This document shows, in pieces, positions 3,301 to 25,229 of a stretch of 64,000 nt of DNA. This stretch comes from Lytechinus pictus (taxonomy: Eukaryota), in NCBI RefSeq assembly GCF_037042905.1, contig NC_087251.1, positions 15,316,001-15,380,000 on the forward strand. The letters run 5' to 3'. The translations under genes were made by a program, and so were the position numbers. Positions within the stretch are counted from its first letter, which is position 1. The number at the start of each line of letters is the position of its first letter. The notes beneath the pieces were generated by a model. The model saw only the letters and a list, made by a program, of their open reading frames with translations. It was not told the DNA's origin and ran no database searches.

Positions 3301-6135
3301 TTTTATTGGTTTGAAACCATATGGAGACAAAAGAGTAGAGTTTCCTCTATCTGCTACATATTAAGAAGTGCTGGTACAGCAAAGCCTACCCCATCTCGGG
3401 ACTGCCGAATTTACCCGCCCCTTTTACGTATTTTGCTAATTTATGGGAAAATATGCTATTTTCGAGCCCCCATTGAAGCAAAACGTGTTTCTGCTATGAA
3501 ATAAAACAAATTTTATTGCTTTTAAACTATGTGGATCAGAAAGAGTCGAGTTTCCTCTATCTGCTACATATAAAGAAGTGCTGGCATTTTAAAGCATACC
3601 CTCTTAGGGGGTCGTCGAAATCACCAACCCTTTTCCATGTTTTACCTATTAATGGGAAAATGCTATTTTCGAGCCCCCATTGAGGCAAAAAGTTTTGCTG
3701 CTATGTTGTAAGGCAAATTGTTATTGTTTTTAAACTATATGGAGACGAAAGAGTAGAGTTTCCTCTATCTGCTACATCTAAAGAAGTGTTGGCATATTGG
3801 AGCATATGCCCTTAGGGGTCGCCGAAATCCCCCACCCCTTTTCCATATTTTACCTATTTATGGGAAAATGCTATTTTCGAGCCCCCATAGAGGCAAAAAA
3901 TGTTTCTGCTATATAGTAAAGCCAGTTTTATTCTTTTGAAACTACGTGGAATTAAATGAGTAGGCTTTCTTCTACCTGCTGCTAAAAAGTGGTTGCACAG
4001 CAAAGCCTATCCCCTCTGGGGGTTCCCAAAGTCACCCACCCCTTTTCCATATTTTTTCCAATATATGGGAAAATCTGTCAATCTTGGAGCCTCTGAAGAA
4101 GGAAGAAGTCGATATGCCAGCACTCTTTTTACTTTTTTTTATGTAGCTGATAGAAAAAAGCCTATTCTTTTATTTCCAAGTGGTTTCCAAAATCAAAACT
4201 AGCATAACTATATAGCAGAAATGACCTTTTGCCTGAATGGGGGCTCAAACACTGCAATTTTTCCAATAAAGAGGGAAAATAGACGTAAAAGTTGGAAGAG
4301 TTCGGCAGCCCCTGAAGGGGGAATGCTTCATTGTGCTACCACATTTTTATATGTAACTGATAAAGAAGATCATACTTTGTCATCTTTATGTGCTTACAAA
4401 ACAAAAACAAGGGCTTTACTGCAAGGCAGAAACACCTTTTGCCTCAATGGTTCTCCAAAATGACGAATTTTCCGAGAAATTGGCAAAATACAAAAAAGGA
4501 TTGGGTGACTTTGGCAGCCCCCTGAGGGGTAGGCTTTGCTATGCCCTAACTTCTTTATATGTAGCTGATAGAAAAACACCTACTCTTTTGTCTCTAAGTG
4601 ATTTAAAAGAAAAAAAATACATACCCAAAACAAAATTTTGCCACATTGGGGGCTCCGAAAAGCACGATATCATAATAGTCAAGCTACGGATAAGGGTGTG
4701 GTATGTAACCTTCTACTGGCTCTTGTGGGACTATGCTTTAAGGTGCCCGAAAGTAATTGCATGCAAAATGAAAACGCAGAGCAATGCCTCGATCCTCTAT
4801 CTTTTTCAAGAGATTTCATTATTATAAAAGTTGCTTTGTGTAGAAAATGCCTTTTACCCTCATACACATGATACAAGTAATACATACCTTTCTATCGATC
4901 GCTAAGCACGTTACATGACTTTTCTGCATGTTAGGCACATCAACAAATGCAATGCAAGATAAAACAGATAGATGTCAATGCACATTATTATTTTGGTTCA
5001 ATTATATTTATAAATTCTTGGTTTTTTTTTCAAAATATATTATTACAGAAAACAATTTCAACCGATTTCTACTATCCAAATCATACTGAAATGCGTATTT
5101 ATTTAAGATTGTCCCATTGTCAGACTCAGACAAATAATTGATTTTTATTTTAAAAAAAGTCCAAGAGGGCCGCAAAAGATATCAATTTTGAACCCCGTTG
5201 GACACGATTTTGCAAAGAGAACATCAAGATTCAATAACTAGACACTTCAGGCAAATACAAAAACGTTGAGTGAAAAATATTTTGATGGTAGACAGGAACC
5301 CCCTTTTCCGACTTGACCACAACGATGCAGTCATACATGGTATAGGTTCGTTGTTGAAAACTAGGCTGAAAACGTAGCCTATAGACTGCCCAGTGGGCAA
5401 TCAATCTTTGCTGAAGTAATTTATTTATCAGCAGAGACATAATAAAGATGAAAATATGTTGTTTGGAAGATTTAATATCATGCAAAATGCAGGAAACATC
5501 AATAAAGTGGGCATATCGTTTGCACACCTCAGCTATATGATAAAAATAGGCCAAAAACGCATGATTTCTATGTGCGCATCATATTGAAAAGGGGGCTGAA
5601 ATCACAGTCTATAATGTCATTTCCAATTACTGGCATATATTTTCTAAAAGTAGAGATAAAGATGAAGAGAATGATATTATGTTTGAGAGGAAATATATTA
5701 AATAAAGTACATTAAAAAAGAAAATAAATTTTTGATTCGATTTTCGACAATTTTTGATGCAAGAAATCTCCCAAACTAATGATATGCAAATTTCATTACG
5801 TAATTTGCATATGTAAACAATAATTTCTGTTCGTGAAATTTTGCATATTTCCTGTGCACTATTTGAACAATATATTTTGAAAGTTTCATACAAAACAAGC
5901 ATGATTTGGCTGAGATATTTCCCCTTGACTTCATGCTATGTGTAGAATGTCTAAAAAATGGTGAAATAGGGCCATTTTGTAGTGACGTCATATATTACGT
6001 CATTTCGGAGGGAAGACCACGGATAGAACCCGGCAGCAATGCATTTTTGTAAACTTCAGGGTCCATGCCATCCAGCTATGGGGTCATTTGCTTGTCCGGC
6101 TTTCGGTTGAATAAACCTCCTGGGCTGCCGGACTA
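363..6135. mobile_element. Foldback-type non-autonomous DNA transposon with >1 kb inverted arms (possibly Academ-like)
   Basis: 363-~1560 is the reverse complement of ~4890-6059 (mirror ORFs 431..646+ / 5776..5991-). Right arm extends to ...GCCGGACTA (5'-TAGTCCGG on the minus strand). No transposase ORF. Confidence 0.8.
1650..4660. repeat. ~210-bp tandem satellite inside the foldback element (about 12 forward units, about 3 inverted units)
   Basis: AGAGTAGAGTTTCCTCTATCTGCTACATA recurs at about 1863, 2071, 2281, 2490, 2700, 2911, 3121, 3332, 3542, 3750, 3957; reverse-complement units near 4141, 4351, 4560. Confidence 0.93.
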
Positions 6136-6315: not shown

Positions 6316-8761
6316 GGCAAGACAATAAATACAATCAAACATCTACATGTATACCACTAATGACAATGTAATTCATACCATGTGCATATACACCACTTGT
6401 TCACTGCAACCACCCTGCCTGTAGGGAATCCACAGGTTGGACTATGGCATGCCAATGCTGTACAGAGCACACTCTTTAAAAATGATTAAAATATCACTTT
6501 TGTGACCAAAAATAATTTTTGTATTCACTATAGCGCTCAAAAACTTGAATATTGGGCATATTTTTGTGTACGCCCTCTATTGGTGGAAAATAATATGGCA
6601 AGAAAATGTTCATTTTTTAATCTCTATTTTAATTAAGAAAAAAATAATTTAAAGAATCAAATTTACTTAAGGGCCAAGTTGTATGACGAATAGGTTAATG
6701 GAAACTGTCAGTGTAAAAAAATCAAGCATTTGTCCCAAAGAAAAAGAGAAAATAAGCCAAACATTGCCATCCTTATTTTGCCACACATGGAGATATAACT
6801 GAGAACAAGGTTATATCATAACCTTGTTCATTGAATGAGTGATATACACTAGTGCATGCAATAACAAGATTATACACAACGCATTTTTAATAAGACACTA
6901 AAAAATATTAGAGGTATTCCTACCAGATATTCATTTTTTAACCTGGGTCGAAAGTGGCAAACACAGATTAACGTTTTACTGAAGGAAATATACTGCTCAA
7001 CCATTTAGTTAAATGTTTTGGGACATACATACACTAGACCAACACATACTAATTCTATTGTGCATGGAATTTAATAGTTGCATATTGAAATGCGCTTATT
7101 TCTTCCTGCATGATCCAAGGCCCAAATGAAGATTGTGAATATAATTGTAATGAATGTATTAAGGTGTGTTTATGAACCTATATTAGAAATAAGCTATTAA
7201 ATACAGATTATTTCATATTTAATAATCTGTAAATTCCTTATGGTATCTAAAATGCACCACACTCTGAATTTTAGAAATACCTTTCAAACATACATTAATT
7301 TACATTATCGATACTGTACATAGTTACAAGGTTATCCACTCATCTCTTACTAAAGACATATCCTTTATTTGCTTTCATCTGCTACATTGTACCATTCTCT
7401 ATATCGTTATGAATTCAAAAGCTGTTTTAAAAGTTTCATTTCAGTTTAAAAGAAAAGAAAATTCAATGCAAGAGAAAATATCAGTATGCAAAAATTCTGT
7501 GTGATTAACATTTCTCTTTCTAATTTCCCTGAGTTTTCAATTGTTTAGATATGTGATGGAATCATGATTACATATTAATGATAATCAGTGTGTATGTATG
7601 TGTTTTTAATGGCTTGGAACAGAATGAGACAGAATAAATGATTGCAAAAATTAATTTGAAAATTTTTTGTTTAATTTTAGGCTATTTTTTAAAAACTGTT
7701 TAGAAGAAGTTGCGATGGGTTTTAATTGATATGATGATACACTTTTCAATTCTACACATATGGCCTAAATTAGAGCCATGTTGCTTTGAAGTTATTAATA
7801 TGATCAACTGTCATCCAATGGTAACTTCCATGAAATCCTTCATTTTGATTGGCCGCTGAGCATTGTTGATGGCAAAGTTACTATGATTGTGTAAAGTTGT
7901 TAAGTTTGCGAAACGGCTCTGATCTGCTTTGCTCTTGAGATGTCATAAGATACATGTAGTTTGATAATGCAGTGGCAAAAAAAACATGCTTTAGTTGCTA
8001 GGTTAAAGAATATTGAAAGAGACATTTAAAGAAATGTTGATAATGTTGCCAATAGCAATGTTATATACAAATAGTAAGATCAAAGTTTGTCAAGACGAAG
8101 GAATCTTGTCTTGATATATGAAACCCTCATGCATGGTGATGCAAAGTGACTGCATTCTTTCATCCAGTACCACCCTAAAGTGTGGAAATGCTTTGATGTA
8201 ATGTACATTGATGAAAGCGCCAGCAGATTAATGAATTATTTTGTCTAACTGCCCAATGCTCAAGCCATTGCAATAGCAATTTATGTGCTCTCTTCCATGC
8301 ATGCATTTTTCAATAATCATGAATGCATTTTTCAATAATCATGAATGCATTTATGATATTTTTTTAGTACAAATTATCTAAATATGGGAATGTTGACAAT
8401 TTAGGTTCATGATAAAATCTGAAATGATGAAGGATGATACAGAAGTTTTCATTAATTCTAAACTATCTAAAACGTTTTGAAATCTTTCTTTTGTCAAATT
8501 TATCTCATGAATTGAGAGCAAACATGTCCATGTTTAAACCATTGAATAAATTAGTCATTATGAATTGAAAATTTGATAATGGATATAATCTAGTGAGGGA
8601 TGTTTTACATGCATTTGCATGTGTATTGCATAATGCATTTTCCAACTTCCAGTATCAAAGGCTCTTAACCCATGGAATGTGAAACTCTCTAATTTCCATA
8701 GACTTTCTATCTTTCTCAATCATGAATTGTATTTGATTTTTTGTAATTGTTTTTCTTTCAG

Positions 8762-8841
8762 GTGAGCCAAGCGACATGGTATTCTGTTCTCTCAAGCTCG
8801 GTATATCACTGCTGAGGGGAGGCAATGAATTGGTTCAGAGG
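8762..8841 (+). CDS. RyR: RyR exon: (G)EPSDMVFCSLKLGISLLRGGNELVQR
   Basis: ttttctttcag acceptor, GTTAGT donor; matches RyR LKLGISILNGGN..VQ. Confidence 0.93.
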
Positions 8842-9470
8842 GTTAGTGTTTTCAGAATGAACAAAATATTAAAGTTTTACTAAGAAGTGTGTTTGATTCA
8901 ATCAATCTCAACTATGGAAAGCCAGCAGTGTCATTATTCTGTCACTTATCCCTTTGTAAACAAGAAGGTTCATGTTGATACACAAACAATATATTCAGAG
9001 GGTATTGTTTGAAAGGTCATATGCATTCCAGGTGATGATGATCTCACTGGCTTTCCATGATTAAGATTGATCAATCATCCTCCTTTGTTAGGTCTGGCCC
9101 AGTTTATTGACAAAACTAACAATTAATTCAGCAGAAGATGGCATATATCTGCTCTGATGACAATACATTGCATCTCAGATAAATGCCAAATGTTCAGAAG
9201 AGTAAACAAAAAACATGGCTGCCATTATGCAATATCCTTTGGGATAGTCTTTCCTTCGTCATGGTAGAGAAATAGGATTTTGACAGGACATGACATGATA
9301 CTTTATCAAATCTTTACAAAAAGGATTTTATGATCAATGTTTTTTACACAATAATTTCATGTAGCTTTATTTGAACTACGCTTTATTTGAACTACACATA
9401 TACAAATTTCATATACCCAAATATTCAATATTATGCATATTTGATAAAATGTTATCTGTTTTTCTACCAG

Positions 9471-9547
9471 AAAATGCTTGAACATCTTCAGGACAAGATG
9501 GATGTTGGGTTCTTCACCAGTGTGGCTGAGCTCATGGAGAAATGCAC
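9471..9547 (+). CDS. RyR: RyR exon: KMLEHLQDKMDVGFFTSVAELMEKC(T)
   Basis: ctaccag / GTAAGT; phase 0->2. Confidence 0.95.
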
Positions 9548-10120
9548 GTAAGTATCTTCTTCTTTCTTAATTATTCAACTTTTCTCATGATATATTGTTA
9601 AGTTCAATTTTCATGATGTCATGTTATTGTATATCAATGATGTGTAGAAATCCAATGTTCACCTGCACTTTTATTTAATTTGTTTTTAAAAAAAAACAAT
9701 GTGAACATAGAATAAAGCATGAAACACAATGGAAACTATAATGTGTAAGTTTTACTTTCACACAATTAAAATATTTGTATATTAAAAAAGAACAACATCC
9801 ACATGAACATCAAAAGGACTTTTGATCATGTACAGTATGTTTTATTTTTTATTTTTCATTTTTTATTTTATTTTTATTTCTCCTCAAGAGCATTTATTAA
9901 AGCATCATTGGCTGTCTGAAGTTGTTCAAACATGTATTTACATGGAAACCGTCTTTTTTATTGAGAAAGTAATCACTCTCCCATTTTAGTTGTAAATGAA
10001 TATGTTTCTAAGCTATATATTTCTTAATTGTTTTCTTGTTGAATAGAATTAATTAGATTGTTTTCTTGCTTGAGATACAATGTTAATGTACGTAGGAAAA
10101 CCTTCATATACCTTCTCCAG

Positions 10121-10194
10121 AGTCCTAGATCTGGAAGCATTTGAGAGGTACAACAAAGCTGAAGGTTTGGGCGTGACTTCTGGAGAAAACGCAG
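10121..10194 (+). CDS. RyR: RyR exon: VLDLEAFERYNKAEGLGVTSGENA(G)
   Basis: ctccag / GTAGGG; phase 2->1. Confidence 0.95.
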
Positions 10195-10540
10195 GTAGGG
10201 AAACATATCTAAAGTCAGGGAAATATATTGATATGAACAATAATCAAGGTTTTTTGTTTGCATTTGTAGAGAGAGCATGCCGTTTTGAACAAGTGTCTAA
10301 GGAAGTTTGGATGTTAGTCCATTGTTTACATTTTAAGATAAAATGTCTTCAGATTGTTTTTTAAAGAAACTTTAACAATATAGATAATGTAGATAAGAGT
10401 TATGTTTGATTGTGTTTTTTCCTTATGTTCAAATCATGTGACATGATAGTGGCACCGAAACAATCTTAGCGGACAAAAGATTGAAGAGTGAAATTAGTGT
10501 GTGTTAACAATAGTTTGTGTTCCACACCTTTTATTTTGAT

Positions 10541-10836
10541 GGTGTTTCATACAGCTGTTTGCCCATGATTTTACTCACGACTGATAACCTGTTCTCGACT
10601 GCCAAATCAGCAAAGCCTATATTCTCATTAATTTTTATTGCAGTCTGCTAAAGCTGTTGTTACCAAGCATCCAAATGTAAAGTTTATTAATGGTCAAAAT
10701 TTGATAATGTTTGGAAGACCACTTCCCAAAGTCAGTACAGGAAAATTGGGGGTATTTCTTAGAGTGCAAGGACAGGTCACCACTTCTTCTTAAAGTTGTT
10801 CATAATTTGCGTTAACTAATAGCTCTATGAAACACC
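10541..10836. mobile_element. Degenerate MITE related to 34325-34516
   Basis: GGTGTTTCATACAGCT ... AGCTCTATGAAACACC inverted ends. Confidence 0.5.
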
Positions 10837-11760
10837 AGAATTTACTGTTACTCAATGCAGTGTTTGTGGGAATACTAGATTAGTGTTTTATTGACCATGT
10901 TAAGCTTGTTAGAGCATGTATGCACAAGTTTCACATCTATCTCCAGACAAATAACTTTGGATAGATAGGTAGATAAATTTATTAATGTTTTTTAATGCTT
11001 TGACCTCAAGTAGAAATCCTGGTGAATATAATGATAAATGGATGAAAAGAAACTCATGATAAAGAAAAAGATAGATATAAGAAAAATAAACTCTTTTGTG
11101 AATTAATTTAATTGATCAATAACCAACTACAAAATCAAATTGTGTAGAATGATAAAATAATGTACACTGTATGAATGAATAGTTAAATGCTAAGAGAAGT
11201 AATAAAAGGAACATTTTGATTATGTTTAGCTTCTTTATGCATTCACTTGAGGAATAATTTGAATTGGTTTTTTGGTGAATTAAAGAAATAACTTTTAAAG
11301 GAGAAGAAAATTCAAAGAAAACAGATTAATTGGCATATTTATCAAACCAACAAATCTATAAATGAATAGATAAATAAATAGATGAATAAAGATGAATAAG
11401 TAAATTAGAACAAATGAATTAAGTTATGGTAAATTGTCACATTACTATGTGAAGTTCTAAGAATGAGTATATTTTCCAAGCATTTTCCACTAATCTTTCT
11501 GGTATTTTGAGCACCTGAAAATGTTTTGAATGGTGTGAGTTTGACATACATTTCCATTACCTCAAATTAAAATTAGTTTTCAGCAAGATAGGAAACATCA
11601 TAGGTTTGAATAAGTTATGTGAGCCTGTCATGTTTTTATGAATTGAAACACAAATATAATCCATCCCATTTCTATAGGATGTGATATTTTCACCTTCTAT
11701 TGATAGGAAAGTTAATACTTTAATAATAGCAGTGCTAGACGTTTAGCACAGCTTTACCAA

Positions 11761-12045
11761 TGACGGTGGCATCATCAACATTAAAATCTTAACCTAAGGT
11801 TAAGTTTTTGAAACGCCATCATAATTCAGAAAGTATATGGACCCAGTTCATGAAACTTAAACAGAAGAGTAATCCAAGTATCACTGAACATCCTGTGTAC
11901 GTTTAAGGTCACATGGTCAAGGTCAAAGGTCATTTAGGGTCAATGAACTTAGATTATATTGGGGGAATCAAAATAAAATCTTAACCAAGGTTAAGTTTTT
12001 GAAATGCCATCATAACTTTTAGAGAAAGTATATGGACCGAATGAA
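11761..12045 (+). mobile_element. Truncated copy of the Helentron-associated element at 29721-30672
   Basis: Shares AAATCTTAACCTAAGGTTAAG...CAAGGTCAAAGGTCATTTAGGGTCAATGAACTT unit. Confidence 0.8.
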
Positions 12046-13364
12046 TTTGAATGTCATTTTTCAATTTGAACAGTAAAATAGTGGCTATATACACTCTTGC
12101 AAATTGTGGAATGAATTTATAGATTTCATAATCCCCCCTCTTGATTTTATGGTAGCTGTGTGAAAGAATCTGATCAACTTGTAGAATATTAGGGTGCAAT
12201 AATCATATTTTTGTGTTTATGTTTCATTTGATTTTCCCCTTTAGCATGTAAAATCTACACATTTGTTGTAATTCTGTAATTTTTGTAAACTTGATAAGTG
12301 ATTAATATGTGTTTCTTGTAATTTTGTAAACTACCACTTTTTTTCTTATGGTTAATTGAAACCTGTTATTTGTATCTGAATTAAATTATGTACATATCAT
12401 AGGTAACATATAGTACAATAATGTTTAGAATCTAGTTAAAGAAGGTATTTGAAGGTATTGTTTATTGTCAAAGTTTGTCATACCATGCTTGACTAGAAAT
12501 ACTTGTCAGAAAGAAGAAAATAATTTTATCATTTTGTGTAACACTGCCAACTGAAGTATAAATTATCATACTTGAAATAAACATGCATTTTGACAATTTC
12601 TTGGGGAAACATCAATAATTACTTTCTCGAACAACTCTCTTGAAGAGCAATTACCTCACATCTATATTTGCACCTGTTATAAGAGAGTTGATTTATGGAA
12701 GTGGAGGTAACTACTCAAAATTTTGGATCAATTGGTTCTTGTAGATAGATAGGTTACCATTAGGCCATGATGTCCATGAAGTCATACTTCTTTCATTCTG
12801 CTTAAAATAGGTGCAAAAGGGCAGTGATAGATTGATAAAGAATTTGTCCATTTGGAAAGCATTTCATGAAAGGACTTGTCTGATGTTTTATCAACATATC
12901 ACCAGTCAAAACACCTGTGCTTCATAGCCAATCAAAATTAAAGAAAGTTTTCTTATCAGGCAACAAATAATGAAGGAAACACCCTCTGGGTCTCCTCTGC
13001 TTCAATTTTGCTCTTCAGCATAATATTGCACAAGTACATGTACCTGATAATATTACAACATAAAACAAAACCAAATGAAAACAAGGATCACATGACTTCA
13101 TTGGCTGTCAGTCATACTTGTTTAAGGAGTTTCAGTGATTTTTCCCCATGAGTTCTGGTAGGTGACATTGCAGCTCTGGAATTTTCTCACTGAGGAGTTC
13201 CTCTGTTTACTTTCTCCCTTTCTTTCTTTTATTTCCTTTGGCAGGGGGGCATAGTTTGCTGAATATCAAATCATAAATTTACGTGATCATGTTTTCTTAT
13301 TAGATGCCAAAATTCTTGTACTTGTCACATTACTTACAGAAGGACAACAAAACAATACCTTTAT

Positions 13365-13519
13365 TGCACAGTCACATTCCCCCTACGGCGACTAAAAATG
13401 ACAGTCGTTTTAACATTTTTTGTACCAGCTACATATAGGTGGTTTGAATAAAAATGAATAAAATTACTGTTTTTGACTCATGTTACGGTCGCTATAGGGG
13501 AATGGTGACTGCAGCATAA
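13365..13519. mobile_element. Short Tourist-like MITE (copy 1)
   Basis: CAGTCACATTCCCCCTAC ... ATAGGGGAATGGTGACTG inverted ends; homologous copy in opposite orientation at ~34152-34307. Confidence 0.7.
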
Positions 13520-13728
13520 ATGCAGAAATTTAAAGGACCTAGAGGCATGTTTTGCTTATTAATTCAGATCCTCCCTTTATTATCTTTCCATGTTTTTTTC
13601 TTCTCTTTATTTTATTATATGTTAAAATTCCCTCGTTTACGTTGATATTGTGTTTGATTTGTTTTCAATCCAATATTTTGTTGATATTTTACCCCTTCGT
13701 CTTTGTGCCCCCTGCAAACCATAAACAG

Positions 13729-13749
13729 GCTGTGATGGACTTAGAGCAG
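13729..13749 (+). CDS. RyR: Candidate alternatively spliced 21-nt RyR microexon: (G)CDGLRA(G)
   Basis: Long pyrimidine-rich tract + aaacag acceptor, CAG|GTAAAA donor, phase 1->1, no stop, at the site homologous to RyR1 ASII. Confidence 0.65.
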
Positions 13750-15693
13750 GTAAAAACTAAGAAACCAAAAGTCTCACATTATCTCTCTCTCTCTCTTGCT
13801 CTTTCTCTATCTCTCTCTTCTCTGTTTTTCACTCAATCACTCTTCCCCCAGCTCTCTCACTCAGGCAGTCAGAATCATTCAAGATAGATTTAAAAATTTC
13901 CCTTCATTAAAAGTATTTTAGGGATTTTTTTTTAAAGCCCCCCCTAATTCAAAGATTTCTCTGGAAATATATCTTGATGTGATGAGATAAAATACACCCC
14001 TTTTCCCAAATTGTGAATGTTCATTCCATAGAGACTATCACCAGAGCTGGGAAAGCTGGGCTCTCCTTTCATTCTTTGTCTTTATCTGTCTTTCTCTTTC
14101 TCTCTAGCTCTCTGTTTCTCTCTTTTTATCTCAATCAGTCTCTCATATTTCTTTCCCTGCAAAGTAAAATTTTAATATGTTATGGCTATGTTAAATGATC
14201 TTTAATTCACTTTCTGTGATATCTCTTCACTTCACGGCACTGTATTAACAAACCTCGGATTCAAATGCCCTCTTATGCAAATGCTGCAATACTTTTATAG
14301 TAGTGTAGAGCAAAATTTATTTTCATCTTTTCTAAATTCATTCTATTTTAAACCACTTCATTTATTGATCCCATATTCGTTTATTTGCATGCCAGCGAAT
14401 GATCATTTATGAGGAATGATTTGTGGAGCTTTTATATTCTCGCACACTGGTTGGTTGGTTGGGGTCTAACTTTGTTTATTCACAGTTGTTCACTATACAC
14501 TCCACAATTGTTATATTCTTGAATGGGTGATGCACACTAAACTGGCACACTACAGATCCTGGAATATGAACAGTATTGACATGTGTAATGCCATTTTGGA
14601 TACTAATATTTAATATTCTTTTTCACTTTTTCTTTCATACAAGCAAAGTTGCTAAGCAATAAAGATGTCATCATTATTTTGAATTATCAAACGGTTTTAG
14701 ATATTTGTAGATTATGTAAATTTCTTTGAAAAATAGGATTTAAGCAATGAAGGCATACATGCAGTTTGCTTGAATATGTGAGGAACTATTGTACCATCTT
14801 TTACCTTCTATTTTGTTAATCAAGACCTAGATACAATAACAAAGTGTTGCATTCAAGAGGCAATTTGCAATATTAAAGAATAAAAAATAATTATTAGCAT
14901 CATTATCATTTTAGTGTTAATTGGGCTTTTCCACAAGAGTAATTATATTTCAAGTGATAAAAATTGAAATAAATGTGTAGGTGGTATTCCTATTTTATTT
15001 GAGGATTAATTGGAAATTGATATACCGTATTTCAATTATTTTGGAAAAGAATCAGAAATGTAAACATGAAAAAATGTTTGTGATTATCTTCAGTGTACAC
15101 ATGAATGCCCATGTAGGAATAGAATAATAGCCCAGAAGAATTGTTTTGTCATGCAATCATTGTAGGACAGTACAAACCTATTCATCCTTGGGACTAAAGT
15201 TCTTTTATTGAAGCCTACATTATTGAGAATGTTCAGTATTTTATTGTTAAAGAGTCATATTTAATTTATTTTTATTGCATGCTGCTGCATGGCTCTTCCT
15301 CTCTCAACTGCATGGCAATCTGCATGTTTCTTTTAAACACTTATTTTAATACTTATGTTTTATAGATCTTTTCATTTTAGTTGTTTATATGCATATCAAT
15401 TTCTCTTCATTATATTAAGGTTTTGCTCTGTCCTTTACATGTGGAAAGATGAGATATGTATCAAAACCTAATAATATGCTGTATGTTCTGAGCAGATTCA
15501 CCCCTCTTAATCTTTCATTCTAGTAGAGGAAAAAATCATTTTAAAGCATTCGTTAATTTGCTTTTTTTAGGATTCCAAAGAATTTCTTTGGTATTTGATT
15601 ATAGGGATACAGAAGGCAAACAAATAATGCGTTGTATAAAGAGTTTCATGACATTTGCTCTGATGGAAAATCTGCATGTTAAGCCAAACTTAA

Positions 15694-16276
15694 AGGAGAA
15701 TGAAACTCTTGGAGCAAGTTAGCTTTTGTGAAAGCAGAAAAATCAAAGAATAAGATCAACAAAACTTTGAGTAAAATAGGACTAGCAATAAAAGAGTTAT
15801 GAGCATTTGAATGTCGAGATCACTAATGCTATGGAGATCCTCCCATTGGCAATGCGACCAAGATCTGTGATGTCACACACGTACAACTCTCCCATTTGGA
15901 CACTGAAAATATACCCCAAAACATCTCTTTTTGCTCATTCTAATCATATGACAAACGATTCATCAATGATATAATGTTGTGAAACCTCTGTACTTGTCAT
16001 CTCATAAAGAGAACACCTCACCTTGTGATATACTCTATAAAAGTGAGAATATAAGTGAAATAAGTACTAAAGTAATGAGGGAGTTGTACGTGTGTGATAT
16101 CATAGATCTTGGTCGCATTGCCGATGGGAGGATCTACATGGCACTAGTGATCTCAATATTCAAATGCTCATAACTTTCTTATTATTCATTCAATCTTCCT
16201 CAAACTTTCAACAATATGTTTCTTTGATTTTTCTCTTTGATATGGATTCAGCTGGTTTCAAGGGTTTCATTGTCCT
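15694..16276. mobile_element. Kolobok/T2-type palindromic MITE
   Basis: TTAA|AGGAGAATGAAAC ... GTTTCATTGTCCT|TTAA; long internal inverted repeats. Confidence 0.85.
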
Positions 16277-16875
16277 TTAAATCCTAACCTCCAAAACTAA
16301 ATAAACCACAGTCCTTATCTTGACAATATTCTGAACCAAAAACTCTATTACAGTCGTAACTCTGCCCTCTGAGATATTTATACCGAAGCAATTGTCGCCG
16401 GAGCAAATGTCATGTCACTATATAAAGATCCATATTTTGATATAAACATAAAAAATAACAACAAGTGAATAAGTATTTTTGTAAGAAATTTTAAAAAGAA
16501 AACATTACTTATACACTATAGGGAATATCCGCATCATTGACTTAAATGAAAAGGAAGACCACATTGCTTTCACATCAAAAGCAAGAATTGATAATAATGA
16601 GAAATCCTCTTCAAAAATATATATTTGGTTTCTCCTCCTTAACCAATTAAGAAAAGAAGATGGTATGATTGACCGACAGGTGGTATTATATCTATCAGCT
16701 GCTCATATTCTTTACGTATATTATTATTTTGCCACATTTGGCATTTCCATTGGCTTTCTATGCAATACCTTACTGCTAGATTCTGTCTTGTATCATTTTT
16801 GTTGACCATACTTCTTTGGATTCTTTAATTTGAAATCTAGTTTGATTTTCTGTATGATATATTTCTCTTTTGTAG

Positions 16876-16956
16876 GAGAGAAGGCAATGCACGATGCAGA
16901 GTTCACTTGCGCCCTCTTCAGGTTTCTGCAGCTGCTCTGTGAAGGTCACAATTTAG
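16876..16956 (+). CDS. RyR: RyR exon: (G)[26 protein letters not shown]
   Basis: ttgtag / GTAATT; contains Ca2+-site motif CEGHN. Confidence 0.97.
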
Positions 16957-17767
16957 GTAATTATTACGGGGAGTGCGTCATGAAAGTTGTCTGCTCTGAC
17001 AATTTCAGTCAAATCCTTGGTTTATATTGGCTGAGAAACTCTGGTCACAGACTGTTTCCTTGGTAACTCTCAGAGAATGACAACCTGTTGGTGCTGACAA
17101 GCTTGATGAAATGCTTCCCTGTTCTTGTGTGTGAATAATTGATTCTTAATTCAATTTACTTTACCTCATATGAAACAGATTCAGAATGACTGACTTTGTT
17201 TGGAAATATTCAACATATAGAACAATAGAAGAATATTCCAAACCTTTATTTTTCTATGATGGTGACCACTTAAGAAATTTAATGTTCTTTTCAAAGTTTC
17301 TTTACAATCAAATTGCAAAACAAACATACATGCAGTGTAGTAAAAAAAATTTGCCTGTAGTCCTGAATCTTGTATCAACACTATACAATACAGTGTTAAT
17401 CAAGATTATGACAGACATCTCCAGTGTGATGCCCTTGAGATTCATACTTCATCATTGCATTTTTTTTTTTTGTGTATTGTTGCTACTCTTGGTATTTGTG
17501 ATTTGATGTTGGGGCTTCATTTTAGGATTGCATGTCATGGACAGTGTACAATCACTAGAAAAGGAGCTATGATCAATGACCTTGCAAAGCGTTTAATATT
17601 TTGGAATTCAGATATTTTTAAAATCTTGATTGGAATGAAAGATTTCTATTGTTGGCAATTGAGATGATCATTTGGGGTCAGGTCAACTCTTAAGTGAAAC
17701 ACTTTGTTGAAAGGGGTAAAAATATTGAATGTGAGTATTAATATATTGTGTCCTTTCTCCTTTGTAG

Positions 17768-17856
17768 AATTTCAAAACTATTTGAGAACCCAAGCAGGCA
17801 ACCATACTACAGTCAATATCATCATCTGCACTGTGGATTATCTACTGAGATTACAG
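17768..17856 (+). CDS. RyR: RyR exon: (E)[29 protein letters not shown]
   Basis: ttgtag / GTCAGT; RIH-associated domain. Confidence 0.97.
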
Positions 17857-18397
17857 GTCAGTTAACCCATTGATTACTTAATTCTTTAATTTCAATAGGC
17901 TTTGTACAAGAATCACAATTTCACAGATTCTGTTCCTAAAAAAAATTGGTTTCATTTTTCTTTTACTAATTGAAATCAATTAATGACATGCTGGCATTGA
18001 TTGTAAGCTCCTTTGAATTCTTTGTAAAAGCAATAAAAAAAAAACAATGAAAATTAAAGAAATTCAAGAAAAAAGTTTTAAATGAATAAGAAATTAATGT
18101 TTTCATCTGAACAGGCTCACTTGTGAAGAACACCATAAAGAGTATCTACAATGAAAGTTAATGCACTTAGAGCTTCATTTATTGATTAAAAGCAAATAGA
18201 AGCAAATAGATTTGCTCACCAATATAGATGTACATTTTGGAAACCACTGAGCTCTTCATCTTTTGGAAATAAGAGAGGCCCATTAAAAAGCAAAGCTTGT
18301 ATTGTTTGTAAGTTCCACATTTTGTGTTTTTCTCCATTTATATCTTGTGTATGTTGAAGTGTGCATAATAGCTATCCTATCTTTCTTTCCATTACAG

Positions 18398-18454
18398 GAA
18401 TCAATCAGTGATTTCTACTGGCACTACTCTGGCAAAGATGTTGTTGATGCTCAG
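18398..18454 (+). CDS. RyR: RyR exon: ESISDFYWHYSGKDVVDAQ
   Basis: ttacag / GTAGTT. Confidence 0.96.
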
Positions 18455-18810
18455 GTAGTTATCTTTAACTAATTATCTATCTCTCCATGGAAAGTTGTCT
18501 GATTAATCGCATTTAATCTGACTTTTCTATACTTTTTTGTCCTCTTTAGATGATGCAGGCGAATCTGTCTAAGTAAAATCACCTGGAACCATAGGAATCA
18601 CAGAAATCAGTTTGACTTAAAAGAAATTTGACTTTCAAGAAGTAAATAACACACATTTTCCATAATCTGGTATGAAATATTGCTTTAAGTTTAAAGGGAT
18701 TATTAAAGATGTGATTCTTTTACATTTAGAGGGCCAACTTGAGTAGACTTGTATCGTGTTTTGTACTTTGAATTCCTTTAATTTTGATAGTTTTTAACTC
18801 TTTCAAACAG

Positions 18811-18882
18811 GGTCGAGAGAACTTCTCCAGGGCATTCAAGGTTGTGAAGCAAGTCTTCAGCTCCCTAACTGAATACATACAG
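18811..18882 (+). CDS. RyR: RyR exon: GRENFSRAFKVVKQVFSSLTEYIQ
   Basis: aaacag / GTAAGT; LTEYIQ Ca2+-site motif. Confidence 0.96.
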
Positions 18883-19185
18883 GTAAGTGAATGGTTCTAC
18901 CACTCATATAAGTATTTCTTGGGGGTTGTGGGTGTGCTGCAATCCATTATTGATTCTATGTGAAATGGATGAGGAAAAAAAGTTTCAAGCAACATTGTGT
19001 CAGGAATACAAATATACCCATTCTGTTAATTAAGATGAGGAAACAGGATGCCATTTGATCGATTTGATGATTTTGCGTAGGTTCTATTTTCTGAGAAAAC
19101 TTTGTCAACATCCAGAAAGGTTCCTAGTCATGTGTGTTTATTACTTGAATAATAAAGGATTTGTTTTATCCATACATTACTTCAG

Positions 19186-19372
19186 GGTCCATGTTCTGGG
19201 AACCAGCTAGCCCTAGCCCACAGTCGTCTCTGGGATGCTGTGGTAGGGTTCCTCCATATCTTTGCCAATCTCCAGAAGAAATTATCCCAAGACACCAGTC
19301 AGCTGGAGCTCCTCCGTGAGCTGCTCAACCTCCACAAAGAAATGGTTGTAATGCTGCTTAGTATGCTTGAAG
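19186..19372 (+). CDS. RyR: RyR exon: [26 protein letters not shown]...[10 protein letters not shown](G)
   Basis: ttcag / GTTAGT; highly conserved central domain. Confidence 0.98.
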
Positions 19373-19404
19373 GTTAGTTGGTCGTAAAAATATGAGGCGT
19401 ATAA

Positions 19405-19794
19405 TGGCCACCGCACACCTTAGGTCTGCGACCCGATTTTGGAATAAAACAAAGTAAAATTTGATGTGAGTACAAAAATGTGAAACATCTTGCTGTTTGA
19501 AGTTCTGAATCATCATACGAATACTAATGTTCAAATCTGTTACTATGCTTCTATCTTTATTAGAATAAAAGCAAATTGAATATCTTGTCGTAATGACGTC
19601 ATAGCAACTGTACGATTGGCTAAGATTTGAAACCAATTGGACCTTTACTCCAAAATAAAGGCTTGCAATCATCCAAAATTGTAATTTGAACCTTAAATAA
19701 AAATATACTTTTTATTCACATTCTCAGAAAATAAGCACATTGCGATTTGTTCCAAAGTTGGATCGTGGACCAGTCGTAAGGTATGCAGAGGCCT
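19405..19794. mobile_element. PIF/Harbinger (Tourist-like) MITE
   Basis: TAA|TGGCCACCGCACACCTTA ... TAAGGTATGCAGAGGCCT|TAA. Confidence 0.7.
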
Positions 19795-20623
19795 TAAGAC
19801 CAAAGACTAGATGGATGAAAGTGTATAATTATTATTGGTTTTGAATATGAAAAACAATCATTTTCCAAGGTTATTGTAAAAAAAAATCATTTATGTTTCT
19901 TGTTATTCTAGAGGAGACTAAAAATATCAAGAGTGTAAAAAAAAATCTTTAAAAATGGGACAGTATTTTAAATTGCACATCAATAGCAAGAATGATCTTC
20001 ATGAAAGACAATTTTCAAAATTTCCCAATTTTATTTGAATCAGTTTTGGTTTTATTATTTTGACAGATCGTTTTCAGTTGCACTTGAAAAGTATTATCTA
20101 TTGTAAATTACACATTCCTCCTTGTTTAAAAATTTTTGAGCAACAAATTACTTGGTAGATTTCACTCTTCCTGTAATCTACAGTCACATACTGTAAATGT
20201 GAATTTCACACCAGTAGTATGCAAGTGTAATTTACATGATGTCAAAGATAACAAATTAATTGGCTTTCCTCCTTTTCTGAAAAATAGAGCTCAAAAGTTG
20301 AAACATTGCTAACATGTTAACTTTGATAGATGTTAGGTTTTAAAATGTGACTAGTTGCAAGAACACGGCAAGTAATTTTAAAGAAATCTTTCCTTAATAT
20401 TGATCTTGTTATTTGGTCATAATTTTTTGAATAACTGCTCTTGATTTTTTAAATTAATGACCAGCAATGATGTGTTCTGTAGACATTATCATTAAAAAAT
20501 ATGCCATTCATGGTCATAAGAAACTTGTATCATGTATGTTTGTGATGAATTTGTTCTTCTTTTTTTTAACCAATAAATAAATGTAGATCATCATCATCAT
20601 CACCACCTTCTTTCTCTTGACAG

Positions 20624-20694
20624 GTAATGTGATGCATGGTACCACTGGTAAACAGATGGTGGATACTCTTGTAGAGTCGTCATCTAATCTAGAG
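20624..20694 (+). CDS. RyR: RyR exon: (G)NVMHGTTGKQMVDTLVESSSNLE
   Basis: gacag / GTAGGT. Confidence 0.96.
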
Positions 20695-21134
20695 GTAGGT
20701 TAACCCATTTTCTCCTGAAATATCTCAACCCTGTGGTGCTAGTATAGTGAACAGTGTAGTAAAAGTCAGTGCATTAGTAGGCATAGTAGATCACTTGTAC
20801 TGTTTTTCATGATATATGTAGCGCTACAACTCCACCCACTATTATCACGTCCTTCGTCAGTCTGTTCCATTTTCATTTGCGCAACAAGGCCATTTGTCAA
20901 AAGTCTGTACTGCATCTTTTGCAGGAATTATTTTTTTTGCCTTTGGACAAAATTGAATGTATTTGGACTCTGCAACCTTTTTTTGAAGCCTCATTCTATT
21001 GACTGGGATTTATGGCTGACTGAGCGATGTTTTGCACCACTTTGCCATTCCATGCCTGAGCATTTATTTAAAAGATATAAGATTTCTTTATTTTAAGTAA
21101 TTTCTGAATCACTATATTTTCACTTTTATATGTA

Positions 21135-21315
21135 TAATAATGATAATAATAATTGGATTTGTATAGCGCTTTTTCAAGAGGATGCAAAGTGTTGTTAGAG
21201 TTTATAGACAAGTTAGGGTTTAAATCTTAATATACAGGTGTGTTTTTAAGATGCTTAAGAAGAAGTTGAGAGAAGAAATGTTTTGGAGAGATGGTGGGAG
21301 TTTGTTCCAATGACG
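21135..21315 (-). mobile_element. Degenerate L2-like LINE/SINE 3' end
   Basis: (AAT)n followed by TTTGTATAGCGCTTT, typical of an L2-type tail read in reverse. Confidence 0.4.
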
Positions 21316-21415
21316 GGGGGGGGGGGGGGAGTTTGGAAAGAATGTCTTGATGTGTGATGTTTTGTTATGAGTCTGAGTTTAATTCATTATTTTCCAATCT
21401 CTCTGTATTCTACAG

Positions 21416-21481
21416 ATGATATTGAAGTTCTTTGACATGTTCCTGAAACTGAAAGACCTTTCTTCTTCTGAGGCATTTAGG
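21416..21481 (+). CDS. RyR: RyR exon: MILKFFDMFLKLKDLSSSEAFR
   Basis: tacag / GTGAGT. Confidence 0.97.
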
Positions 21482-22165
21482 GTGAGTTCTGGGTTCAATC
21501 TGATATTATTCCAAATATGTTTTTCTTTAAATTGTAGGGAGAGATGCAAGAACTAATGATTATGATAATAATTGTTATAAACATTGCTTATAAAGTGCAT
21601 ATAACTATGATATTATCAAACAAAGTCTTGATATGAATATTTTATATATTTTGGATTTCTAAATTTTGATTTCATTTGTTTAATTTCTATGATCAGGGGC
21701 ATTTTGCACATTGATACAATTAAATCCAATATTGGTATTAATTAGCCGTCTCTGTCAGTTCTGTATAAGAGTAGTGTGATAGGAAGAGCAAGATTTTTAA
21801 AAATATATCTGAAGAGATATCTTTACTGTAGTCCCTTCAGAATTAGATCAGTGCACCGAGTTCAGAAAATTTGTAGTCATTATTAGATGCAGCTTTATCA
21901 TGCTCTGCATCTCTTTCTTCCTATTACACAAATTTATGCATAGACAAAACAACAAGGGATCAGAAAATACAACATATAAATGACAAAGCTATGGATCTGA
22001 ATATACCACCATGTACAATGTTAATTCTAAATTTGGTCACTGTTGGATAAGGTAATATATGGTTAGCTTTAAATATAGTTGAATTGCCTGTTTTTTCATA
22101 ACCATCTCTTTTAGTTATTATAAAATACATGTTATTTACAATTGGAATGATATCTTTTGTGACAG

Positions 22166-22245
22166 GAATATGATGCAAATGGCGATGGTTGGATCTCACA
22201 CAAAGAGTTTCAAAAGGCCATGGAAGCACAGAAGATGTACACAGC
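22166..22245 (+). CDS. RyR: RyR exon, EF-hand 1: EYDANGDGWISHKEFQKAMEAQKMYT(A)
   Basis: gacag / GTAAGT. Confidence 0.97.
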
Positions 22246-22589
22246 GTAAGTTATACTACAAACGTATACATGTTACACACAGGAATCTAGCACTCGGCAA
22301 GACATTCCTTCGTTACTACAGCGTTCTGCAAATTGCCAAGAGTTTATGAATATAGATAGAAAGAAATGAAAACTAGTTATAAAATGAAATTGACAGATAC
22401 ACCTGTAGCTAAAGAATACCCTTCATTCACACAAACTTTGATTGCAGTTTCTTTTAAAATTTGGAGCTCTTTGAAGATGATGTTAGCAATGTCAATATCT
22501 GATATGGTACCGTGATTGATTAAATATATTCTAAGATGCTAAATTATTTTCGTTTGATATGTTTGTTTTATGGTTTTATTTCTCAATAG

Positions 22590-22693
22590 AGATGAGATTG
22601 ACTACTTGTTGAAGTGTGCTGATAGGAATAACGATGGAAGGATCGATTTCAACGAATTCACAGAGAGATTCCATGGACCTGCCCAAGATATCG
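22590..22693 (+). CDS. RyR: RyR exon, EF-hand 2: DEIDYLLKCADRNNDGRIDFNEFTERFHGPAQDI(G)
   Basis: caatag / GTATGG. Confidence 0.97.
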
Positions 22694-23059
22694 GTATGGA
22701 AAATATGACATTCCTAATACAGTTTCATTTACTGAATTAATACTGCACCTACTCATAGAATTTTGAAGAAAAAAAAACTCTTTATCACAATCCTAAACCA
22801 AATCTATTTTCTGTAAATAAATTAAGAAGGAACCTTTGTTTCATTTGAGTAAATGTGGGTCATCTTCTTTTACATCTTCTAGTTTTATCAAGGTGACCAT
22901 TCTATAGTAGCTACATGCACACAGTCAAGGTACTGATTATTCATGTGTATTGGGTACATTTATGAAGTTGTAATAATGAATATTTATTCTTATTCTATTT
23001 TGAATCACTAAATCTCTATTTGATTCATTTATCTTTTACTAATAACAGAATAAAATTAA

Positions 23060-23640
23060 AGGGATGGTCCGGGCTGAAAATATGTATATCTTAATACATA
23101 GAGTAGAATTCACTGAGCAAAATGCCGAAAATTCAATCAAAATCGGATAACAAATAATAAAGCTATTGAAGTTTAAAGGTTAGCAATATTTTGTGAAAAC
23201 AGTCATCATGAATATTCATTAGGTGGGCTGATGATGTCACATCTCCACTTTCCGTTTACTTATGTTATTACATAAAATCATAATTTTTTCATTATTTCAT
23301 ACTTGTGTGAATAATATGTCTCCCTTATAATGAATCAAGTTGCAGCAATAGATATCTAATGCACTAAATCAGTTGTCAATCCAATTTTCTAGTTCTTGGA
23401 GGAAAAAATTTGAATAAACCTAATTTCATATCATAAAATACAAAAGAACAAGTGGAGATGTGACATCATCAGCCCACCTAATGAATATTCATGACGACTG
23501 TTTTCACAAAATATTGCTGAACTTTAAAATTCAATAACTTTGTTATTTGTTATCCGATTTTGATGAAATTTTCAGCATTTTGCTCAGTGAATTTTACTCT
23601 CTTTATTAAGCTATACATACTTTCAGCCCGGACCATCCCT
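23060..23640. mobile_element. Kolobok/T2-type palindromic MITE
   Basis: TTAA|AGGGATGGTCCGGGCTGAAA ... TTTCAGCCCGGACCATCCCT|TTAA; arms >200 bp inverted. Confidence 0.9.
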
Positions 23641-23870
23641 TTAAGAGATACCACACCCCTCTGTCTTTGAGACTTTGAAATTTGGTCATGACATCTTCTT
23701 GACCCACACAATGGATACCTCCATTGAAATAATGTGTAAATAGTTCTTTCCTGATTTTGCATTTATATAAGTCTCAAGAAAGTGGACTATTAATGTTGAT
23801 GGCTTTGGAACTACTCCCGGTTCAGTTTGACATTGTGGTCATTAAAGATATATTTATATCTTGATTTTAG

Positions 23871-23928
23871 GTTTCAATCTGGCTGTGCTGTTGACCAACC
23901 TTGCAGATCACATGCCTGGTGATAGAAG
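23871..23928 (+). CDS. RyR: RyR exon: (G)FNLAVLLTNLADHMPGDR(R)
   Basis: ttttag / GTAACT. Confidence 0.96.
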
Positions 23929-24463: not shown

Positions 24464-24540
24464 GTTGGAACGGTTCTTACTGCAAGCAGAGAGTTTACTG
24501 ATATACTTTGAACCCTACCTGGGTCGTATTGAGATCATGG
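24464..24540 (+). CDS. RyR: RyR exon: LERFLLQAESLLIYFEPYLGRIEIM(G)
   Basis: tatcag / GTAAGT. Confidence 0.97.

Positions 24541-24761: not shown

Positions 24762-25229
<468 letters not shown>

What the first reader, a model, noticed from the sequence alone, without database searches (positions are those of the whole stretch)
13690..13760. 21-nt microexon candidate at the position of mammalian RyR1 ASII
Seen: inside a 6.7-kb intron, a ~150-nt pyrimidine-rich tract ends ...TTTGTGCCCCCTGCAAACCATAAACAG|GCTGTGATGGACTTAGAGCAG|GTAAAA. The exon is 21 nt, phase 1-1 and stop-free, and gives ...GENA-GCDGLRA-GEKAMHD. Established: mammalian RyR1 has the optional 18-nt ASII exon (VINRQN) between EDGT and GEKVM, which is the same junction. 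UGC motifs between the pyrimidine tract and a purine-rich 3' splice site are the signature of SRRM3/4 (eMIC)-dependent microexons, and two TGC occur here. Inference: an ancient or convergent splice switch just upstream of the Ca2+-activation site, which here also adds a Cys. Automated annotation could easily miss it.
Basis: partly seen in the sequence, partly recalled or inferred. Interest (0 to 1): 0.8.

Follow-up and report, generated by a model that had tools for sequence, protein, structure and literature searches.

The report
Real 21-base ryanodine-receptor microexon, already annotated
The 21-base stretch is a genuine tiny exon of the sea urchin's ryanodine receptor calcium-channel gene, spliced into its messenger RNA at the same spot as a known optional mini-exon of vertebrate channels, and public annotation already lists it.

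Summary
Observation confirmed. Window 13729-13749 is a 21-nt, phase 1-1, stop-free exon inside the 6681-nt intron 10195-16875 of a ryanodine receptor (RyR) gene. The best protein match is Lytechinus pictus.

- **RNA evidence.** Spliced contigs of all 4 public runs laid (2 studies) join 10194|13729 and 13749|16876 with GT..AG ends.
- **Annotation.** RefSeq already holds both forms. Isoform X1 (549 aa) has GCDGLRA; X2 (542 aa) lacks it and differs in nothing else. The claim that annotation would miss it is wrong.
- **Position.** The junction is exactly that of RyR1 ASII (exon 83, residues 3865-3870).
- **Distribution.** A 6-aa insert at this junction occurs in RyR1-, RyR2- and RyR3-named vertebrate proteins. 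A 7-aa insert occurs in three other urchin species, a starfish isoform and probably a crinoid. None occurs in 47 arthropod-type sequences.
- **Sequence.** Echinoderm and vertebrate inserts are unalike, so common descent is open. The cysteine is serine in Diadema.
- **Cis features.** The 3' splice site has a 159-nt AG-free zone, two UGC within 23 nt and a long pyrimidine tract. This matches the published eMIC-exon code, but tissue and regulator are untested.
- **Structure.** The insert lies in a low-confidence loop 22 residues before the Ca2+-binding Glu.

The parts
10121..10194 (+). Upstream RyR exon (…VLDLEAFERYNKAEGLGVTSGENA, last base G is codon position 1)
   Evidence: contig piece 10121-10191; joint to 13729. 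One search aligns it to RyR1 3841-3860 and RyR2 3801-3822.
13568..13726 (+). AG-free, pyrimidine-rich zone upstream of the microexon's 3' splice site (implies a distant branch point)
   Evidence: 159 nt without AG, against 23-33 nt at five neighbouring acceptors; 70% pyrimidine over 13550-13728.
13706..13715 (+). Two TGC (UGC) motifs, 13-22 nt before the acceptor AG; the first also reads YGCY (TGCC)
13729..13749 (+). 21-nt cassette microexon, phase 1-1, encodes G-CDGLRA-(G)
   Evidence: joints on both sides with GT..AG in 4 of 4 runs; the only difference between RefSeq isoforms X1 and X2.
13750..13755 (+). 5' splice site of the microexon (CAG|GTAAAA, 7 of 9 consensus positions)
13782..13823 (+). 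Downstream (CT)n / CU-rich tract, 82-93% pyrimidine, 33-74 nt after the donor
   Evidence: flags 13771-13829 as a skipped repeat.
16876..16956 (+). Downstream RyR exon ((G)[26 protein letters not shown]), carrying the Glu and His that align to RyR1 E3893 and H3895
   Evidence: One search aligns it to RyR1 3872-3896. PMC8609856 (passage) names the Ca2+ ligands.

Best explanation
Shown:
- Window 13729-13749 is a genuine 21-nt, frame-preserving exon of the single-copy ryanodine receptor gene. The best protein match is Lytechinus pictus.
- It is spliced between exons 10121-10194 and 16876-16956 in the assembled transcripts of four runs.
- It adds GCDGLRA to the protein.
- RefSeq models a form with it (X1) and a form without it (X2).
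- It sits at exactly the residue junction of vertebrate RyR1 ASII.
- An insert of the same length occurs in other echinoids, in a starfish isoform and probably in a crinoid.

Inferred:
- Inclusion is the major form.
- The insert lengthens a flexible linker between a helix ending near KAE and the helix that carries the Ca2+-coordinating Glu 22 residues later.
- It therefore most likely tunes how this part of the central domain couples to Ca2+ activation, through linker length rather than specific side chains. Across echinoderm classes the length is kept and the sequence is not.
- Recognition of the exon rests on a 3' splice site with a distant branch point, a 159-nt AG-free pyrimidine tract and two UGC just upstream. 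This is the architecture described for exons that need an SRRM (eMIC-type) activator and are held down by PTB-like binding to flanking pyrimidine tracts.

I put about 0.4 on that particular regulator.
For: - Splicing: joints 10194|13729 and 13749|16876 with GT..AG in 4 of 4 runs (contig depths 14.7, 30, 25.4 and 4.17). In three runs the same contig carries the next four junctions.
- Annotation. XP_063957488.1 (X1, 549 aa) and XP_063957489.1 (X2, 542 aa) differ by 7 residues only.
- Position: plus PMC3899969 (passages).
- Conservation: GCDGLRA is identical in L. variegatus X1-X3, in S. purpuratus and in an older L. pictus model. Diadema antillarum has GSDDLRP (4 of 7 identical). Patiria X3 has VTGESAA. 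The Anneissia model has DENGAIA at the same spacing.
- Structure: an AlphaFold model from a 40-sequence alignment (mean pLDDT 77.8, pTM 0.70). Residues 64-77 are not helical and 69-77 have pLDDT under 50. The insert is residues 73-79. Helix 87-102 ends at the Glu aligned to E3893.
- Cis features: against PMC8797185 section 10.
Against: - No skip joint 10194>16876 is among the 15 joints listed (10 more were not shown). Contigs drop rare variants, so alternative use in L. pictus rests on the RefSeq X2 model alone.
- All four runs and all three L. variegatus isoforms include the exon. That does not look like a rare, tissue-restricted form, though the tissues of the runs are unknown.
- The upstream tract is U-rich rather than UCUC.
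- A scan of the genome for Pfam SRRM_C found nothing, but its controls were silent as well, so it is uninformative.
- No functional datum exists for the insert here. The mammalian ASII passages I read give developmental timing and regulators but no channel-function effect.
- The loop's low pLDDT may reflect sparse alignment rather than flexibility.
Confidence: 0.85

Rival explanations
1. The exon is effectively constitutive in sea urchins. The skipped X2 form is a rare by-product, so there is no regulated 'switch'.
For:: only the inclusion path appears in the contigs of 4 of 4 runs, and no skip joint is among those listed; all three L. variegatus isoforms, the single S. purpuratus model and the older L. 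pictus model include it.
Against: RefSeq models X2 differing only here. The Diadema setosum model lacks the insert while D. antillarum has one. Patiria has skip, +2, +7 and +15 forms. The 159-nt AG-free zone is atypical beside the neighbouring exons.
Confidence: 0.2
2. It is a regulated cassette, but controlled as mammalian RyR1 exon 83 is said to be (CELF- and MBNL-type or PTB-type muscle and developmental regulators), not by the neural eMIC programme.
For: PMC11961898 and PMC3899969 (passages): exon 83 inclusion changes after birth, is modulated via CELF1, and is deficient in myotonic dystrophy. The sequence shows YGCY motifs at 13706 and 13797 and a (CT)n tract downstream. From general knowledge, these resemble MBNL and PTB binding sites.
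Against: [quoted passage not shown] The motifs are short and their counts are weak statistically. The two models are not exclusive, since PTBP1 is named there as the repressor of Srrm4-dependent exons in mammals.
Confidence: 0.3
3. It is a chance AG...GT open segment (pseudo-exon) that the cell does not use.
For: 63 in-phase, stop-free AG...GT segments of 6-51 nt exist in this intron, so the pattern alone proves nothing.
Against: Spliced contigs in 4 of 4 runs, RefSeq isoform X1, and an identical peptide in two other urchin species.
Confidence: 0.01

Closest known systems
Mammalian RyR1 ASII (exon 83, 18 nt, residues 3865-3870, VINRQN)
   Same: Identical residue junction. Frame-preserving mini-exon with both included and skipped forms on record. 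Lies 22-23 residues before the Ca2+-ligand Glu.
   Different: 21 nt rather than 18. No sequence likeness (GCDGLRA against VINRQN). Its regulation and function in the urchin are unknown. Descent from one ancestral exon is not shown.
6-aa inserts at the same junction in other vertebrate RyR proteins
   Same: Same junction, with forms with and without the insert. Examples: LIVRER in RyR3-named mammal proteins; VITHER, VISHER and VMTHER in fish RyR2-named proteins; IISREN and IIRREN in bird and reptile RyR1; NKKLER-type in fish RyR1. They show the site is a long-lived cassette position.
   Different: Several of the vertebrate inserts share Ile at position 2, Arg at 4 and Glu/Gln at 5; the echinoderm inserts do not.
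Starfish (Patiria miniata, Acanthaster) RyR isoforms
   Same: A 7-aa insert (VTGESAA) at the same junction.
   Different: Starfish add a second 8-aa unit (DVCFLTEF or DVHFLTEF) and have a +2 (VT) form. The sequence is unrelated to the urchin 7-mer.
Dipteran RyR ASIV (24-bp optional exon, EYIPSAGA)
   Same: A mini-exon in the same linker, near the RIH-associated domain, developmentally regulated (PMC3989282, passages). Seen in a Rhagoletis model.
   Different: Inserted between KAE and GLG, 10 residues upstream of this junction. None of 47 arthropod-type sequences at baseline spacing has an insert at the urchin and vertebrate junction.
eMIC (SRRM3/4, Srrm234)-dependent neuronal microexons
   Same: Very short length, long AG-free zone, UGC near the acceptor and a long pyrimidine tract (PMC8797185, section 10). 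Drosophila RyR itself has two eMIC-dependent microexons of 12 and 21 nt (table S2 of that paper).
   Different: Neural specificity and dependence on the factor are untested here. The fly RT-PCR primers map about 90-175 residues upstream of this junction in mosquito proteins, so those primers do not flank this junction; which of the two fly exons they assay is not known.

Membership tests
Cassette microexon (frame-preserving exon of about 30 nt or less) | Very short exon bounded by AG and GT and joined to both neighbours in RNA | tested here: met
   21 nt; both joints with GT..AG in 4 of 4 runs.
Cassette microexon (frame-preserving exon of about 30 nt or less) | Multiple of three, no stop, reading frame kept | tested here: met
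Cassette microexon (frame-preserving exon of about 30 nt or less) | Both included and skipped mRNAs exist in the same species | tested here: inconclusive
   RefSeq X1 and X2 say yes. One search lists no skip joint (15 joints listed, 10 not shown; contigs drop rare variants).
Orthologue of vertebrate RyR ASII-type exon | Same position in the protein | tested here: met
   RyR1 3865-3870 is the only unmatched stretch between the two exons.
Orthologue of vertebrate RyR ASII-type exon | Same intron phase | tested here: inconclusive
   Phase 1 is shown here. For vertebrates it is only inferred, from the residue after the insert changing with inclusion in fish RyR1 (N or S without, D or G with). No vertebrate DNA was examined.
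Orthologue of vertebrate RyR ASII-type exon | Recognisable sequence or length similarity of the exon | tested here: not met
   21 nt against 18 nt. GCDGLRA, GSDDLRP, VTGESAA and DENGAIA do not resemble VINRQN, IISREN, LIVRER or VITHER.
Orthologue of vertebrate RyR ASII-type exon | Presence in intermediate lineages (hemichordates, cephalochordates, tunicates) | not tested
   No such protein was identified. Proteins over 5000 aa were outside the search.
eMIC-dependent neuronal microexon | Cis code: long AG-free zone, UGC near the 3' splice site, long pyrimidine tract | tested here: met
   against PMC8797185 section 10. The UGC count alone is weak (2 seen, 0.46 expected).
eMIC-dependent neuronal microexon | Neuron-enriched inclusion | not testable with these tools
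eMIC-dependent neuronal microexon | Dependence on an Srrm234-type factor present in the genome | tested here: inconclusive
   Pfam PF15230 found nothing in the genome, but also nothing in any control genome.

The most novel reading that the evidence does not exclude
The cassette before the GEK codon is one ancestral deuterostome RyR microexon, more than half a billion years old. It was kept in all three vertebrate paralogues (18 nt) and in at least three echinoderm classes (21 nt). In echinoderms, selection acts on linker length rather than sequence. The exon is read by the ancestral eMIC/PTB microexon machinery. The single-copy sea urchin gene would then be a simple model for the still unexplained function of mammalian ASII beside the Ca2+-activation site.
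Probability: 0.3. Interest if true: 0.65.

Novelty: new member of a known kind. Interest (0 to 1): 0.4.

Why it matters
In the passages I read on mammalian ASII, its timing and regulators are described but no effect on channel function is given. It sits one helix away from the Ca2+-activation site.

Tabulating 292 RyR sequences shows that the same residue junction carries a mini-exon in RyR1-, RyR2- and RyR3-named vertebrate proteins and in echinoids, starfish and probably crinoids. Flies have a different mini-exon 10 residues upstream in the same linker. This linker therefore appears to be a recurrent target for splicing-based tuning of the channel.

Urchin eggs and embryos are a classic Ca2+-release system with one RyR gene, so the effect of the insert could be tested there.

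The exon itself is no discovery, because RefSeq already models it. What my literature searches did not find in print is its correspondence to ASII and its distribution across echinoderms.

Tried and rejected
- **Run search.** No RNA holder is listed on record. The spliced contigs show that they hold RNA.
- **Skip joint.** No joint 10194>16876 is among the 15 listed, and 10 more were not shown. In X5 the microexon contig has depth 4.17 while downstream contigs have 12.8-26.1. That could be a graph branch or 3' bias, so I draw nothing from it.
- **eMIC domain in the genome.** The Pfam SRRM_C (PF15230) scan gave no match, and controls were silent. It is uninformative.
- **Intermediate lineages.** I sought hemichordate, amphioxus or tunicate RyRs in the 50%-representative search (150 listed; junction inspected). 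None were identifiable, because the library carries no names. No further insert at this junction was seen, apart from two probable intron read-throughs (P0427, P0438).
- **Length limits.** searched only proteins of 112-2000, 962-2745 and 4159-5000 aa. Full-length RyRs over 5000 aa were reached only through cluster listings.
- **Fly eMIC exons.** I tried to map the two Drosophila eMIC-dependent RyR exons (12 and 21 nt). The paper's RT-PCR primers translate to peptides lying 90-175 residues upstream of this junction in mosquito proteins. Those primers therefore do not flank this junction; which of the two exons they assay is not known. This mapping is by proxy species only.
- **Literature.**
  - 'microexon' + 'ryanodine receptor': 11 papers, 9 listed; the listing shows none on RyR microexon evolution.
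  - 'ryanodine receptor' + 'sea urchin' + 'splice variant': 24 papers, 15 listed; none on this exon by title or abstract.
  - 'suRyR': 4 irrelevant papers.
  - The original sea urchin RyR cloning paper is not in the library and was not seen.
- **Earlier scan notes.** Nothing near this place. One note on arthropod RyR calmodulin-site exons does not bear on this junction.
- **Cysteine as the point of the insert.** Rejected, because it is not conserved.

Full report
**The sequence.**
- An RyR exon ends at 10194 (…GGAGAAAACGCAG|gtaggg).
- The next RyR exon starts at 16876 (ttgtag|GAGAGAAGGCAATG…).
- The intron between them is 6681 nt.
- A 21-nt segment at 13729-13749 is bounded by aaacag| and |gtaaaa.
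- Read in phase 1, it inserts GCDGLRA between GENA and GEKAMHD.
- The 179 nt upstream are 70% pyrimidine, against 52% for the whole intron.
- TGC occurs at 13706 and 13713.
- The 201 nt around the exon are single copy in the 811.7-Mb assembly.

**Is it more than chance?** The pattern alone is not. The intron contains 63 in-phase, stop-free AG…GT segments of 6-51 nt. The candidate ranks first of the 63 on a crude score: donor match 7 of 9, and pyrimidine content 0.65 over 60 nt and 0.70 over 150 nt. Two TGC in 40 nt compare with 0.46 expected, which is weak.

**RNA settles it.**
- All four carry a contig with joints 10191>13726 and 13747>16874. Both have GT..AG ends once the cut is shifted by the stated 3 and 2 bases, which gives 10194|13729 and 13749|16876.
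- Contig depths are 14.7, 30, 25.4 and 4.17.
- In X1, X3 and X4 the same contigs (5191, 4985 and 10760 nt) continue through 16956|17768 and three further junctions. The exon is therefore part of a long RyR mRNA.
- No skip joint is among the 15 joints listed, and 10 more were not shown. Contigs show presence, not absence.

**Who and what.** The 63-aa exon at 19186-19374 hits, at 100% identity, 'ryanodine receptor 2-like isoform X2 [Lytechinus pictus]' (542 aa). Its 90% cluster has one other member, isoform X1 of 549 aa. The two differ only by the 7 residues of this exon. The exon is therefore already annotated, in both the included and the skipped form.

**Position relative to ASII.**
- Against PDB sequences, the upstream exon aligns to RyR1 3841-3860, so its 24 residues reach 3864. 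The downstream exon aligns from 3872, with the split Gly codon at 3871. Exactly 3865-3870 is left over.
- The RyR2 and RyR3 chains are contiguous at this point.
- PMC3899969 (passages) defines ASII as exon 83, residues 3865-3870.
- The protein database shows EDGT-VINRQN-GEKVM beside EDGT-GEKVM.
- The E and H of LCEGHN align to RyR1 3893 and 3895. PMC8609856 (passage) names these as a direct and an indirect Ca2+ ligand.
- The junction is therefore the ASII junction, 22 residues before the Ca2+-binding Glu.

**Distribution.** It was recognisable in 292 of them.

| Group | Spacing or insert | Count and examples |
|---|---|---|
| All sequences | Baseline spacing | 202 sequences |
| Arthropod-type | Baseline spacing, no insert here | 47 sequences |
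| Vertebrate-type | +6 aa at this junction | 33 sequences: VINRQN (mammal RyR1); IISREN, IIRREN (birds, reptiles); NKKLER-type (fish RyR1); VITHER, VISHER, VMTHER (fish RyR2); LIVRER, INVRER (RyR3) |
| Urchins | +7 aa, GCDGLRA | 6 models: L. pictus X1 and an older model, L. variegatus X1-X3, S. purpuratus |
| Urchins | +7 aa, GSDDLRP | 2 Diadema antillarum models |
| Urchins | No insert | L. pictus X2 and Diadema setosum |
| Starfish Patiria miniata | Skip; +VT; +VTGESAA; +VTGESAA-DVCFLTEF | X6 and X8; X5; X3; X1, X2, X4 and X7 |
| Starfish Acanthaster | +15 aa | The long form, with H in place of C |
| Crinoid Anneissia | Inclusion-form spacing, DENGAIA | 1 model |

Three conclusions follow:
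- A 7-residue insert at this junction is shared across echinoderm classes, with almost no sequence conservation between classes.
- The cysteine is not conserved.
- Nothing links the echinoderm sequence to the vertebrate one.

I found no hemichordate, amphioxus or tunicate RyR to bridge the gap.

**Insects.** No insert at this junction was seen. One Rhagoletis model carries EYIPSAGA between KAE and GLG, 10 residues upstream. This matches the 24-bp ASIV exon of Bactrocera: the published diagnostic primer translates to YIPSAGA, and the exon is described as near the RIH-associated domain and conserved from Drosophila (PMC3989282, passages). Drosophila RyR has two eMIC-dependent, pan-neuronal microexons of 12 and 21 nt (PMC8797185, table S2). 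That paper's RT-PCR primers map 90-175 residues upstream of this junction in mosquito proteins. Those primers therefore do not flank this junction, and I could not tell which of the two exons they assay.

**How the exon is recognised (inference).**
- The acceptor is preceded by 159 nt without any AG. The five neighbouring acceptors whose coordinates I had right have 23, 33, 30, 24 and 26 nt; a sixth coordinate was off by one and is dropped.
- Two UGC lie 13-22 nt from the AG.
- The donor matches the consensus at 7 of 9 positions.
- A (CT)n tract of 82-93% pyrimidine lies 33-74 nt downstream.
- PMC8797185 (section 10, read whole) lists long AG exclusion zones, UGC near the 3' splice site, long polypyrimidine tracts and strong branch points as the code of eMIC-dependent exons in flies and mammals. 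It calls this code largely unique to them and names PTBP1 as their mammalian repressor.
- The urchin exon fits three of these features. I did not score branch points.
- Against this, mammalian exon 83 is reported to be modulated via CELF1 and to be lacking in myotonic dystrophy (PMC11961898 and PMC3899969, passages). The exon is also present in all four runs laid here.
- A Pfam SRRM_C scan of the genome was silent, as were its controls.
- I put about 0.4 on eMIC-type control, about 0.3 on muscle or developmental regulators, and about 0.2 on the exon being effectively constitutive.

**What the insert does (inference).** I built an AlphaFold2 model of isoform X1 from a 40-sequence alignment (mean pLDDT 77.8, pTM 0.70).
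- Helix 52-63 is followed by non-helical residues 64-77, of which 69-77 have pLDDT under 50.
- A short helix 78-82 follows, then helix 87-102 ending at the Glu that aligns to E3893.
- The insert is residues 73-79.

It therefore lengthens a probably flexible linker just before the Ca2+-site helix. Combined with conservation of length but not of sequence, the most likely effect is a change in linker length or tension that tunes Ca2+ activation. No functional measurement exists.

**Verdict.** The ASII correspondence is exact at the residue level. The exon is ordinary in the sense that RefSeq already lists it, and common descent with ASII is unproven. The comparative picture of one linker with mini-exons in vertebrates, echinoderms and flies is the part worth keeping.

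Noticed in passing
window 8737-26542 and beyond: RefSeq splits the L. pictus RyR into three adjacent gene models. Their proteins of 3715, 549/542 and 674 aa match L. variegatus X3 residues 269-4002, 4008-4556 and 4556-5234. The middle model starts at an internal Met of the exon near 8790 and ends at a stop at 26540-26542, right after …FVIVG, where the L. variegatus protein continues. RNA contigs up to 10.7 kb run through the region, so this looks like annotation fragmentation rather than three genes.
   Followed up: partly
Patiria miniata proteins P0091, P0314-P0319, P0321: The starfish has four patterns at the same junction: none, +VT (6 nt), +VTGESAA (21 nt), and +VTGESAA-DVCFLTEF (45 nt, with the next residue changing G to S). 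This suggests a nested donor inside the first mini-exon and a second 24-nt mini-exon.
   Followed up: partly
Nothobranchius furzeri RyR2 proteins P0122, P0125, P0135: One fish RyR2 has three forms at this junction: no insert, VMTHER, and a different 6-mer GKSNLF with G changed to S. This hints at two alternative mini-exons in the same intron.
   Followed up: no
window 11710-12041 and 15694-16357: Two stretches inside the intron have summed contig word depth of about 100,000-180,000 in all four runs, and a joint on opposite strands links 11901 and 15688. They look like copies of a very abundant, probably transcribed, repeat family in inverted orientation.
   Followed up: no
window 24613-25312: A roughly 700-nt trinucleotide microsatellite reads as long poly-His, poly-Ser, poly-Ile, poly-Asp or poly-Met runs in different frames. 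It lies between RyR exons.
   Followed up: no
window 1600-4600: Open frames of about 60-120 aa with near-identical peptides (…SATYKGVLIQQSLPPLGTAEVIRPFYVFCPLMGKYAIFEPPLRQK…) recur every roughly 210 nt on both strands. This is a tandem repeat array in an upstream intron.
   Followed up: no
Rhagoletis protein P0113; PMC3989282: The dipteran 24-bp optional RyR exon (EYIPSAGA) lies in the same linker, 10 residues upstream of the echinoderm and vertebrate junction.
   Followed up: partly
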